In this document: piece after piece, positions 4,336-7,300 of the stretch
Layout: each line of letters begins with the position of its first letter
How positions within the stretch are numbered: position 1 is the stretch's first letter
NCBI RefSeq assembly: GCF_058153355.1
Contig: NZ_CM177019.1
Length of the DNA stretch: 64,000 nucleotides
Reading direction: 5' to 3' (one strand)
Made by a program: the position numbers

Positions 4336-7300
4336 TGATCTGATTCGGGCGCGGTTCTCGCGCCCGTTATTAACAGGTCATTTATCGGAAGACGCCTGCC
4401 ACAGATTCAGCTCGCCATCGGCGATATGCTGATCAATCTGCGCCAGCTCCTCGGTGCTAAATGTCAGATTATTCAGCGCCTGCACGTTCTCCTCAAGTTG
4501 CTCCGCGCGGCTGGCACCAATCAATACCGACGTCACTCGCTCATCTTTCAGCAACCAGCTTAACGCCATTTGCGCCATTGATTGTCCACGCTGCTGTGCC
4601 ATTTCATTCAATAACCGCAGGCTGTTGAGGTTGGCTTCGGTGAGCATTTTCGGCGTCAGGCCACGAACTTTATTCCCTTCACGATGCATACGTGAATTTT
4701 CAGGAATACCGTTGAGATATTTTCCGGTCAGCAATCCCTGGGCCAGAGGAGTAAAGGCAATGCAGCCCACGCCGTTATGTTGCAGGGTATCCAGCAGGCC
4801 GCTTTTATCCACCCAGCGGTTCAGTAAATTGTACGAAGGTTGATGAATTAACAGCGGAATTTTCCACTCGCGCAGCAACTCGACCATTTTTTGCGTCCGC
4901 TCTGGCGAGTAAGAGGAGATCCCGACATAAAGCGCCTTACCGCTTTGTACCGCATGAGCCAGCGCAGAGGCGGTTTCTTCCATCGGCGTATTTTCATCGA
5001 CGCGATGAGAGTAAAAGATATCGACATACTCCAGCCCCATCCGCTTCAGGCTTTGGTCGAGGCTGGCGAGCAGGTATTTACGTGAGCCGCCAGAGCCGTA
5101 CGGGCCGGGCCACATATCGTATCCGGCTTTGGTAGAGATAATCAGTTCATCGCGATAAGCGGCAAAATCCTCCCGCAGCAGGCGACCAAAGTTCTCTTCT
5201 GCGCTTCCTGGAGGCGGCCCGTAATTGTTGGCTAAATCAAAGTGCGTAATGCCCAAATCAAACGCTTTGCGCAGGATCGCACGCTGTGATTCCAGTGCGT
5301 TAACGTGACCGAAATTGTGCCATAAACCGAGCGATAACGCGGGCAGGCGTAAACCGCTTTTTCCGCAATAGCGGTATTGCATCTGCCCGTAACGTTCGGG
5401 ATTCGCTAACCAGACCATGACCTCTCCTTTCCACCATTCAATTTCGAAACAATGTTTCCAGTTTAGCGATTTACCAGGGGGGATCCCGTAGCATCGCTCA
5501 CAGTGTGACGAAAAACTGGGCAAAAACACGTGCTTATGCTTTGCTTAAAAAAACACCAATTGAGGAGTGCAATGATGCCGCGTCTGACCGCTAAAGATTT
5601 CCCACAAGAGTTGCTGGATTACTACGACTATTACGCTCACGGGAAAATTTCGAAACGTGAGTTCCTCAACCTTGCGGCGAAGTATGCGGTGGGCGGGATG
5701 ACGGCATTAGCGTTGTTTGATTTGCTCAAGCCAAATTATGCGCTGGCGACTCAGGTAGAGTTTACCGACCCGGAAATTGTTGCTGAGTACATCACGTATT
5801 CTTCGCCAAATGGTCACGGCGAGGTACGGGGTTATCTGGTGAAGCCCGCAAAGATGAGCGGCAAAACGCCAGCCGTGGTGGTGGTGCATGAGAATCGTGG
5901 ACTGAATCCGTATATCGAAGATGTGGCACGGCGAGTAGCGAAGGCGGGGTATATCGCCCTGGCACCTGACGGCTTAAGTTCCGTTGGAGGTTATCCGGGT
6001 AATGATGATAAAGGTCGTGAGCTGCAACAGCAGGTTGATCCAACCAAACTGATGAATGATTTCTTTGCCGCAATTGAGTTTATGCAACGCTATCCGCAAG
6101 CGACAGGCAAAGTGGGTATTACCGGATTTTGCTATGGCGGTGGTGTATCGAACGCGGCGGCTGTCGCGTATCCGGAACTGGCCTGCGCGGTGCCGTTTTA
6201 TGGTCGTCAGGCACCCACTGCCGATGTGGCGAAGATTGAAGCGCCTTTACTGCTCCACTACGCGGAACTGGATACCCGAATCAACGAGGGCTGGCCCGCT
6301 TACGAGGCGGCGTTGAAAGCCAATAATAAGGTCTATGAGGCGTATATCTATCCGGGGGTTAATCACGGATTCCATAATGATTCCACGCCCCGTTATGACA
6401 AATCTGCCGCCGATCTTGCCTGGCAAAGGACGCTGAAATGGTTCGATAAATATCTCTCCTGATAGGTTTATCTCTTACGGGATTACGTCTTAAACAAGCA
6501 TGAAAAAATAGCGTGCGCAAAAGTCGTTCTTTGCCTAAAATATCGCTATATATGACAATATATAGCGAATGAGGTGAACGATGAATAACCATTTTGGTAA
6601 AGGCTTAATGGCGGGATTAAAAGCAACGCATGCCGACAGTGCGGTTAATGTGACAAAATACTGTGCCGATTATAAACGCGGTTTTGTATTAGGCTACTCA
6701 CACCGGATGTACGAAAAGACCGGAGATCGCCAGCTTAGCGCCTGGGAAGCGGGGATTCTGACGCGCCGCTATGGACTGGATAAAGAGATGGTAATGGATT
6801 TCTTTCGTGAGAATAATTCCTGTTCTACGTTGCGCTTTTTTATGGCCGGTTATCGCCTCGAAAATTGATCAAACATACGTATTATCTTGCTTTAATTAAT
6901 TACACTAATGCTTATTCCCTTCGTTTTAGTGCCCCGCCGCAGTATCATGATATCGATAACCATAATAAATGTGTGGTAAATGGCGCATCGATCGCATTAT
7001 TGATTTTGCGATTGAGGCAAAATATATGCCAGGTCTTCGCAACGGAATAACTATAAATGACTGGAGATAACACCCTCATCCATTCTCACGGCATTAACCG
7101 TCGTGATTTCATGAAGCTTTGTGCAGCATTAGCCGCCACCATGGGGTTAAGTAGCAAAGCCGCTGCAGAAATGGCCGAATCGGTTACTAACCCGCAGCGT
7201 CCGCCAGTTATCTGGATTGGCGCGCAGGAGTGCACCGGTTGTACGGAATCTCTGCTTCGTGCAACGCATCCAACGGTAGAAAACCTCGTGCTGGAGACTA

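What the first reader, a model, noticed from the sequence alone, without database searches (positions are those of the whole stretch)
6543..6568. Perfect 11-bp inverted repeat immediately upstream of yghW
TCGCTATATAT-gaca-ATATATAGCGA is an exact palindrome 13 nt from the yghW start codon, the geometry of a dimeric repressor operator overlapping the promoter. No regulator for this site is known to me.
Basis: seen in the sequence. Interest (0 to 1): 0.35.

Follow-up and report, generated by a model that had tools for sequence, protein, structure and literature searches.

The report
ModE molybdate-repressor operator at yghW promoter
The palindrome is real and is a textbook-quality binding site for ModE, the molybdate-sensing regulator of E. 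coli, placed on the yghW promoter like the operator of the molybdate transporter genes; the ModE link to this locus is already published.

Summary
In detail: TCGCTATATAT-GACA-ATATATAGCGA lies at 6543-6568, and 12 nt separate it from the yghW ATG at 6581. The window is the E. coli yghX-yghW-hybO region.

The 24-bp core (6544-6567) matches CGnTATATA-N6-TATATAnCG with no mismatch. In E. coli K-12 that pattern is the single outstanding hit upstream of each classical ModE target: modA, moaA, dmsA and napF have 1-2 mismatches, and the next-best hit has 6 or more.

All 80 yghW orthologue loci I fetched (Escherichia to Serratia, 48-98% protein identity) keep the element 12-25 nt before the ATG (75 nt in one). 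The arms are about 96-100% conserved, the central six bases vary, the length is always 24 bp, and the neighbouring genes differ.

The -10 hexamer lies inside the site. As at the ModE-repressed modA, the site is close to the ATG (13 vs 19 nt, against 73-198 nt in the other three operons). A Salmonella transcriptome study groups yghW with modABC in a "molybdate" gene module.

Best reading: ModE-molybdate represses yghW. Kurata et al. 2013 already tied ModE to this locus through an antisense gene, morA. I could not read that paper, so the direction of regulation is my inference.

The RNA-hairpin and terminator readings are poorly supported. Novelty: already known. Interest: low. The one open lead is that YghW (DUF2623) has no known function.

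The parts
6544..6567 (.). ModE operator core (Mo-box), CGCTATATA-TGACAA-TATATAGCG. The perfect palindrome extends one base further on each side (6543-6568).
   Evidence: It matches CGnTATATA-N6-TATATAnCG with no mismatch, and it is the only hit with 3 or fewer mismatches in the 64-kb window. The same pattern is the single outstanding hit at K-12 modA, moaA, dmsA and napF. It is conserved in 80 of 80 yghW orthologue loci.
6543..6553 (.). Left arm / half-site, TCGCTATATAT.
   Evidence: Columns 6544-6552 are 82-100% identical across 80 distinct upstream sequences.
6558..6568 (.). Right arm / half-site, ATATATAGCGA.
   Evidence: Columns 6559-6567 are 96-100% identical, except the degenerate position 6565 at 53%.
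6553..6558 (.). Variable central hexamer (TGACAA) between the half-sites.
   Evidence: Only 1-32% identity across species. There are 21 different hexamers among the 81 sites, and the length is always 6 nt. It also varies within E. coli: TTACAA in strain HS, TGGCGA in strains W and C311.
6531..6559 (+). Proposed sigma-70 promoter of yghW: -35 TTGCCT (6531-6536), 17-nt spacer, -10 GACAAT (6554-6559). The -10 lies in the centre of the operator.
   Evidence: Shimada et al. 2014 (PMC3946193) report in-vitro RpoD holoenzyme SELEX binding in the yghX-yghW spacer, with the hexamers placed computationally. My own stricter consensus scan did not call this promoter. GACAAT is not conserved in E. coli W and C311, so the exact -10 is uncertain.
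6571..6574 (+). Shine-Dalgarno sequence GAGG of yghW.
   Evidence: Read directly from the sequence. A G-rich block is conserved at this position in orthologues.
6581..6868 (+). yghW, the gene the operator travels with: 95 aa, DUF2623, function unknown.
   Evidence: The site stays with yghW while the neighbouring genes change. The AlphaFold2 model is a six-helix protein (pLDDT 87.5) with no significant PDB match.
6537..6540 (.). A-run directly 5' of the operator. On the minus strand it reads as a U-tract after the hairpin. It is lineage-specific.
   Evidence: It is 83-97% conserved among the loci. It is absent in Serratia, Salmonella and Kosakonia, and absent at the modA, moaA, dmsA and napF boxes.

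Best explanation
The palindrome is a high-affinity operator for the ModE homodimer, the molybdate-sensing regulator with a winged helix-turn-helix domain.

Proposed mechanism: when molybdate is plentiful, ModE-molybdate binds the two half-sites CGCTATATA and TATATAGCG. Their centres are about 15 bp apart. The site covers the -10 region and the likely transcription start of the yghW promoter, so RNA polymerase is excluded and yghW is shut off. When molybdate is scarce, ModE leaves the DNA and yghW is expressed together with modABC.

What is shown here: the sequence match, the presence of the same motif at the four classical ModE targets, the deep conservation with yghW, and the modA-like geometry.

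What is inferred: physical binding by ModE, and the sign of the regulation on yghW.

Because the site is symmetric and AT-rich, it may also control a leftward (antisense) promoter, as Kurata et al. 2013 reported for morA. The two roles do not exclude each other.
For: 1. Match to the ModE box. The site has no mismatch to CGnTATATA-N6-TATATAnCG and is the only hit with 3 or fewer mismatches in the window.

2. Same motif at the classical targets. In E. coli K-12 the pattern picks out exactly one site upstream of each: modA CGTTATATTGTCGCCTACATAACG (2 mismatches), moaA (1), dmsA (1) and napF (2). The next-best hit in each region has 6 or more mismatches. The K-12 yghW site is identical to the one in this window. 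modE is annotated in K-12 as 'DNA-binding transcriptional dual regulator ModE'.

3. Phylogenetic footprint. All 80 yghW orthologue loci carry the box with at most 1 mismatch. It lies 12-25 nt from the ATG in 79 loci and 75 nt in one. The arms are about 96-100% conserved, the centre is variable, the length is fixed, and the flanks are poorly conserved. Neighbouring genes differ between genera, but the box stays with yghW.

4. Geometry. The site ends 13 nt before the ATG at yghW and 19 nt before it at modA, the ModE-repressed operon. At moaA, dmsA and napF the distance is 73-198 nt; by my recollection ModE activates these three. Most genera have a perfect TATAAT inside the box. For E. coli, PMC3946193 places the -10 GACAAT at the centre of the box.

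5. Expression. In Salmonella Typhimurium the 'molybdate iModulon' (a set of co-varying genes) consists of modA, modB, modC, STM0770, STM0771, STM3142 and yghW (PMC9764980). In one E. coli array study yghW (13-fold) and modA (2.3-fold) fell together.

6. Literature. Kurata et al. [quoted passage not shown] PMC12327845 states that ModE binds palindromic motifs, represses molybdenum uptake genes in E. coli, and binds DNA more tightly when molybdate is present.
Against: - No binding or expression experiment could be run or read here.
- The primary paper (Kurata 2013) is not in the held library. From its abstract as I recall it, it assigns the ModE-dependent promoter at this locus to an antisense gene (morA), not to yghW.
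- ModE is a dual regulator, so position alone does not prove repression.
- The iModulon text does not give the sign of the yghW weight, and the supplements held nothing on it.
- The -35 element is weak in most species. The E. coli -10 assignment is computational and is not conserved in strains W and C311. My own promoter scan did not call a promoter here.
Confidence: 0.75

Rival explanations
1. It is the same ModE box, but its real target is a leftward or antisense promoter (morA of Kurata et al. 2013), and yghW itself is not regulated by ModE.
For: The title of Kurata 2013, and the citing papers that list yghW/morA as an antisense overlapping pair. The AT-rich palindrome offers -10-like hexamers on both strands; for example, TTCATC-17-TATATT can be read on the minus strand (my reading). 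A 26-aa minus-strand ORF with a TTG start (6626 to 6546) overlaps the yghW 5' end and stops inside the box.
Against: That antisense ORF is not conserved: 51 of 66 loci that keep the TAG have no ORF in that frame. By contrast, the box is kept at a fixed short distance from the yghW ATG in 79 of 80 loci, whatever lies upstream. In Salmonella yghW belongs to the same co-varying gene set as modABC. I could not read the paper, so morA's coordinates are unknown to me.
Confidence: 0.15
2. It is an intrinsic terminator on the minus strand (hairpin 6568 to 6543 followed by TATTTT) that stops antisense transcription running back through yghW.
For: The consensus scan flags it as terminator-like on the minus strand: 11 pairs, 3 of them G-C, with tail TATTTTAGGC. 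The predicted hairpin energy is -12.3 kcal/mol. The A-run at 6537-6540 is 83-97% conserved, and many Enterobacteriaceae have AUUUUUU after the hairpin on the minus strand.
Against: No annotated minus-strand gene lies upstream of it. The stem is AU-rich. The U-tract is missing in Serratia, Salmonella and Kosakonia, which still keep the box perfectly. The one variable stem position (3/22) can pair in only 67 of 81 sites on the minus strand. Loop length never changes, although a hairpin would tolerate such change. The four classical ModE boxes show the same sequence without any terminator context.
Confidence: 0.04
3. It is a regulatory RNA hairpin in the yghW 5' leader (sense strand) that controls translation or mRNA stability.
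For: The sense RNA 6535-6600 folds to -16.7 kcal/mol with a z-score of -4.4 against shuffled sequences. The hairpin ends 2 nt before the Shine-Dalgarno GAGG.
Against: Either -10 assignment puts the transcription start inside or after the palindrome, so the full hairpin would not be in a yghW-promoter transcript. The arms are invariant in sequence rather than co-varying. The only variable pair can form in just 46 of 81 sites on the plus strand, and 28 sites have a C/A mismatch there. In Klebsiella-type sequences the sense hairpin is weak at -3.8 kcal/mol. There is no Rfam match at E of 1 or below. The hairpin does not cover the Shine-Dalgarno sequence.
Confidence: 0.03
4. It is an operator for some other, unidentified dimeric regulator and only resembles a ModE box by chance.
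For: No binding assay was seen here. The ModE consensus I used came first from memory.
Against: The recalled pattern was then tested. It picks one unique site in each of the four classical ModE-controlled promoter regions. By my own calculation, the per-position chance of 2 or fewer mismatches in 16 specified bases is about 3e-7. The yghW site is the best match of the five. yghW co-varies with modABC.
Confidence: 0.03

Closest known systems
ModE operator of the E. coli modABC promoter (molybdate transport; repressed by ModE-molybdate)
   Same: The half-site sequence and spacing are the same: modA has CGTTATATT-GTCGCC-TACATAACG and yghW has CGCTATATA-TGACAA-TATATAGCG. The placement is the same: the box overlaps the -10 and start region, ending 19 nt (modA) or 13 nt (yghW) before the ATG. 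The two are in the same expression module in Salmonella.
   Different: The yghW box is a perfect palindrome with no mismatch to the pattern, while modA has 2. The gene it fronts is a 95-aa DUF2623 protein of unknown function rather than a transporter. ModE-dependent repression of yghW was not demonstrated in anything I could read.
ModE boxes of moaA, dmsA and napF (by my recollection, operons that ModE activates or co-activates)
   Same: They have the same 24-bp motif with 1-2 mismatches.
   Different: Those boxes lie 73-198 nt upstream of the start codon, which is the arrangement of an activator site. The yghW box sits on the core promoter.
morA, the non-annotated antisense gene at yghW reported as directly controlled by ModE (Kurata et al. 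2013, J Bacteriol 195:4496)
   Same: Same locus and same regulator. This palindrome is almost certainly the ModE site behind that report, because it is the only ModE-like box in the 64-kb window.
   Different: That paper assigns the regulation to the strand opposite yghW. My comparative data show that the box is conserved with yghW and that the one short antisense ORF I found here (a morA candidate) is not conserved. I could not read the paper's details.
Archaeal and other bacterial ModE boxes, e.g. RTTATGT-N8-RCATAAY in Methanosarcina acetivorans
   Same: It is a palindromic operator bound by a ModE dimer, and it represses genes that are needed when molybdenum is scarce (PMC12327845).
   Different: The half-site sequence and spacing differ, and it comes from a different clade.

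Membership tests
ModE operator (Mo-box) | Inverted repeat of the form CGnTATATA-N6-TATATAnCG (also written TATAT-N7-TAYAT) with fixed spacing. | tested here: met
   0 mismatches over 16 specified bases at 6544-6567, and the only hit with 3 or fewer mismatches in the window. The consensus was recalled from memory and then validated.
ModE operator (Mo-box) | The same motif is present at the established ModE-controlled promoters of the same species. | tested here: met
   In K-12, modA has 2 mismatches, moaA 1, dmsA 1 and napF 2. Each is the single outstanding hit in its region, with the next-best at 6 or more mismatches.
ModE operator (Mo-box) | The organism encodes ModE. | tested here: met
   modE (b0761) is annotated in E. 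coli K-12 beside modABC. The window is an E. coli chromosome. modE is not inside the window itself, so it was not checked for this particular strain.
ModE operator (Mo-box) | Conservation of the half-sites, but not the spacer sequence, in orthologous promoters. | tested here: met
   80 of 80 loci have at most 1 mismatch. The arms are about 96-100% conserved, there are 21 different central hexamers, and the length is always 24 bp.
ModE operator (Mo-box) | Physical, molybdate-enhanced binding by purified ModE (gel shift, footprint or SELEX). | not testable with these tools
   Kurata et al. 2013 reportedly found the locus by genomic SELEX (a binding screen on genomic DNA fragments). I saw only the title and the citing sentences; the paper is not held.
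ModE operator (Mo-box) | ModE- or molybdate-dependent expression of the adjacent gene. | tested here: inconclusive
   The evidence is indirect only. The Salmonella molybdate iModulon contains modABC plus yghW. yghW and modA fell together in one E. coli array study. No modE-deletion or molybdate-shift data for yghW were seen.
Rho-independent terminator (minus strand) | Stable G+C-rich hairpin followed directly by a U-tract, downstream of a transcription unit, with the features conserved. | tested here: not met
   It was flagged by the scan. However, it has only 3 G-C pairs, there is no annotated upstream minus-strand gene, and the U-tract is absent in Serratia, Salmonella and Kosakonia, which keep the box.
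Structured cis-regulatory RNA (leader hairpin or riboswitch) | Base pairing maintained by compensatory change, with the element lying within the transcript; ideally a match to a known RNA family. | tested here: not met
   The stem sequence is invariant. The only variable pair is not maintained: it can pair in 46 of 81 sites on the plus strand and 67 of 81 on the minus strand. There is no Rfam hit. The predicted transcription start lies inside the palindrome.

The most novel reading that the evidence does not exclude
The conserved target of this operator is yghW itself, not the E. coli-specific antisense morA. It is the best ModE box of the five compared and is kept in every yghW-bearing genus sampled, from Escherichia to Serratia. 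If so, DUF2623 proteins would be an unrecognised, ancient member of the molybdate-starvation response, with a direct but still unknown role in molybdenum homeostasis or molybdoenzyme maturation.
Probability: 0.45. Interest if true: 0.45.

Novelty: already known. Interest (0 to 1): 0.2.

Why it matters
As a sequence feature this is ordinary: a known regulator's operator at a locus already linked to that regulator in print.

Its remaining value is as a pointer. The box is the closest match to the motif among the five E. coli ModE sites compared here, and it has stayed attached to yghW across Enterobacteriaceae and Serratia. This argues that the small protein YghW, which has no known function, is switched on when molybdate runs out. 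That gives a concrete condition in which to look for its function, and a reason to re-examine whether the published antisense gene morA or yghW is the physiological target.

Tried and rejected
Papers I could not obtain: Kurata 2013, Studholme & Pau 2003, Anderson 2000 and Demtroder 2019. As a result, the morA coordinates, the reported sign of ModE action and the published consensus could not be checked. I validated the consensus on K-12 sequence instead.

Literature searches that returned only noise: 'morA/morB/ModE', 'TAYAT' and similar. All 10 searches are used.

Supplements: the Salmonella iModulon paper's files held no hits for yghW, and the NAR 2016 SELEX review has none held.

Rfam search of 6300-7100 at E of 1 or below found nothing.

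My strict sigma-70 scan found no promoter at the site. The promoter assignment therefore rests on PMC3946193 and on the TATAAT seen in orthologues.

YghW function: Pfam gives only DUF2623. The AlphaFold2 model is confident (pLDDT 87.5), but the Foldseek search of the PDB gave no hit with E of 0.001 or below.

Rejected readings: the terminator, the leader hairpin and an unknown regulator (see the rival explanations).

Full report
**Observation.** The window is an E. coli chromosome segment. The 601 bases around the site match 5,423 of 5,426 complete E. coli genomes, where they are annotated yghX ('YghX family hydrolase') and yghW ('DUF2623 family protein'). The gene order is gpr/yghZ (minus strand), yghX (5530-6462), yghW (6581-6868), then hybO (7057 onward).

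The arms are at 6543-6553 and 6558-6568, they are 11 of 11 complementary, and the loop is the 4-nt GACA. Twelve bases, including the Shine-Dalgarno GAGG at 6571-6574, separate it from the yghW ATG.

A perfect inverted repeat of 11 nt or more with a loop of 10 nt or less is expected 0.17 times per window of this size and composition. The window holds seven. Such repeats are therefore enriched here as functional elements in general, and the palindrome alone is suggestive rather than decisive.

**Identity of the site.** The core reads CGCTATATA-TGACAA-TATATAGCG. From memory this resembled the ModE (molybdate-responsive regulator) operator consensus CGnTATATA-N6-TATATAnCG. I treated that as a lead and tested it.

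- In the window, the pattern has one hit with 3 or fewer mismatches: this site, with none.
- In E. coli K-12, I fetched the upstream regions of the four classical ModE-controlled operons. The pattern picked exactly one outstanding site in each: modA CGTTATATTGTCGCCTACATAACG (2 mismatches), moaA CGCTATATACATGATTACATAGCG (1), dmsA CGATGTATACAAGCCTATATAGCG (1) and napF (2). The next-best hit everywhere had 6 or more mismatches.
- By my own calculation, the chance of 2 or fewer mismatches in 16 specified bases is about 3e-7 per position.
- The K-12 yghW site is identical to the one in this window. Of the five boxes, the yghW box is the closest to the symmetric pattern.
- modE is annotated in K-12 as a 'DNA-binding transcriptional dual regulator'.

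**Conservation.** A scan of one genome per species with the YghW protein returned 80 loci. They come from Escherichia, Citrobacter, Klebsiella, Raoultella, Kluyvera, Kosakonia, Enterobacter, Lelliottia, Salmonella, Shimwellia, Serratia and others, at 48-98% protein identity.

- Every locus has the box with at most 1 mismatch. It lies 12-25 nt upstream of the ATG in 79 loci and 75 nt upstream in one.
- In an alignment of 80 distinct upstream sequences, the arm columns are about 96-100% identical. The six central columns are 1-32% identical, and most of the remaining spacer is 5-60% identical.
- There are 21 different central hexamers, but the length is always six.
- The one degenerate arm position (3, paired with 22) shows C/G 35, C/A 28, T/G 7, C/T 4, T/A 3, T/T 2, A/T 1 and A/G 1. 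Base pairing is therefore not preserved: it is possible in 46 of 81 sites on the plus strand and 67 of 81 on the minus strand.
- This is the signature of a protein-recognised dyad, not of an RNA stem.
- The neighbours of yghW change between genera. yghX is directly upstream in some, gpr is divergent in others, hybO is downstream only in some, and none of these is present in Serratia. The box always stays with yghW.
- Within E. coli, variation falls in the central hexamer (TTACAA, TGGCGA) and at degenerate position 22.

**How it most likely works.** Shimada et al. 2014 found in-vitro RpoD holoenzyme binding in the yghX-yghW spacer. They placed the yghW promoter computationally as TTGCCT-17-GACAAT (PMC3946193). 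In window coordinates that is 6531-6536 and 6554-6559, so the -10 is at the centre of the box. In most other genera a perfect TATAAT occupies box positions 6-11. On either assignment, RNA polymerase and ModE compete for the same DNA, and transcription starts inside or just after the right arm.

The box ends 13 nt before the yghW ATG, compared with 19 nt at modA. At moaA, dmsA and napF it lies 73-198 nt upstream. [quoted passage not shown] The yghW geometry is therefore the repressor geometry.

Independent expression evidence points the same way. In Salmonella Typhimurium the 'molybdate iModulon' (a set of co-varying genes) consists of modA, modB, modC, STM0770, STM0771, STM3142 and yghW (PMC9764980). 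In one E. coli array study yghW (13-fold) and modA (2.3-fold) fell together.

I therefore commit to the following: ModE-molybdate binds this box and represses yghW, and molybdate starvation derepresses it. The steps shown are motif identity, conservation and geometry. The steps inferred are binding and the sign of regulation.

**What is already known.** Kurata et al. [quoted passage not shown] From my memory of the abstract, ModE targets were found by genomic SELEX (a binding screen on genomic DNA fragments), and a new ModE-dependent promoter on the strand opposite yghW was named morA. I could not open the paper.

Since this is the only ModE-like box in 64 kb, it is almost certainly the site behind that report.

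**Rivals.**

- *Minus-strand terminator.* The scan flags the hairpin plus TATTTT on the minus strand, and an A-run 5' of the box is conserved in many Enterobacteriaceae. But Serratia, Salmonella and Kosakonia keep the box without any U-tract, no annotated gene needs terminating there, and the stem is AU-rich.
- *Sense leader hairpin.* The fold is stable (-16.7 kcal/mol, z = -4.4). However, the likely transcription start lies inside it, there is no covariation, the Klebsiella-type sequences fold weakly (-3.8 kcal/mol), and Rfam has nothing.
- *ModE box serving only the antisense morA.* This is possible in E. coli. But the one short antisense ORF I could find (26 aa, TTG start, 6626 to 6546) is absent in 51 of 66 comparable loci, while the box-to-yghW relation holds in all 80.

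**The target gene.** YghW is a 95-aa DUF2623 protein. The AlphaFold2 model built on 24 orthologues is a confident six-helix protein (pLDDT 87.5), but it has no significant structural neighbour in the PDB (best E = 2.6). The only functional study I found links a yghW knockout to butanol tolerance and membrane fatty acids. Its function therefore remains unknown. The deep conservation of a consensus ModE box in front of it is the one lead worth following.

**Verdict.** The interpretation as a dimeric repressor operator on the promoter is supported. The regulator is ModE. Novelty: already known. Interest: low (0.2), with a moderate residual lead concerning YghW's role under molybdate limitation.

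Noticed in passing
L089 (NZ_CP015853.1, E. coli O157:H7 ATCC 43889, about 4296594-4296637); corresponds to window about 6480-6557: One complete genome has a deletion in the yghX-yghW spacer that removes the left arm and the promoter -35 region. 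Only the right half-site TATATATCG remains in front of yghW. If it is real rather than an assembly error, this strain should have lost ModE control of yghW, and possibly yghW expression.
   Followed up: partly
window 6546-6626 (minus strand): A 26-aa ORF with a TTG start lies antisense to the first 15 codons of yghW and has its stop codon inside the left arm of the box. It could be the 'MorA short peptide with an unusual initiation codon' of Kurata 2013, but I could not check. It is not conserved outside Escherichia.
   Followed up: partly
window 6507-6517, and about 20-25 nt upstream of the box in L013, L030, L035-L045, L061 and others: A second, clade-specific conserved motif, AAATAGCGCTA (palindrome TAGCGCTA), lies upstream of the box in Klebsiella, Kluyvera and Raoultella. 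E. coli has AATAGCGTGCG about 10 nt further upstream. It resembles the outer ends of two ModE half-sites fused together. Its role is unknown.
   Followed up: no
window 6554-6559 versus L087 and L088 (E. coli W, C311): The -10 hexamer that PMC3946193 proposed for yghW (GACAAT) reads GGCGAT in strains W and C311. Either the promoter strength differs between E. coli lineages or the published hexamer assignment is not the functional one.
   Followed up: no
window 2736-2764, 16673-16703, 40984-41014, 43119-43144, 44462-44491, 60823-60853: Six other perfect inverted repeats of 11 nt or more with loops of 10 nt or less, against 0.17 expected by chance. For example, ATGCCCGGTTGC-TTTTT-GCAACCGGGCAT at 2736-2764 looks like a terminator. 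None was examined.
   Followed up: no
window 5530-6462: yghX is intact here: 310 aa, with a dienelactone hydrolase domain plus an N-terminal YqhI-like segment. In K-12 it is a pseudogene split into yghX and yqhI, and strain HS has it frameshifted. The window is therefore not K-12.
   Followed up: partly
L058 (Enterobacter sp. JUb54), about 75 nt upstream of the tblastn match start: This is the only locus where the box is 75 nt rather than 12-25 nt from the assumed ATG. The sequence after the box differs from all the others, which suggests an insertion or a misplaced start there.
   Followed up: no
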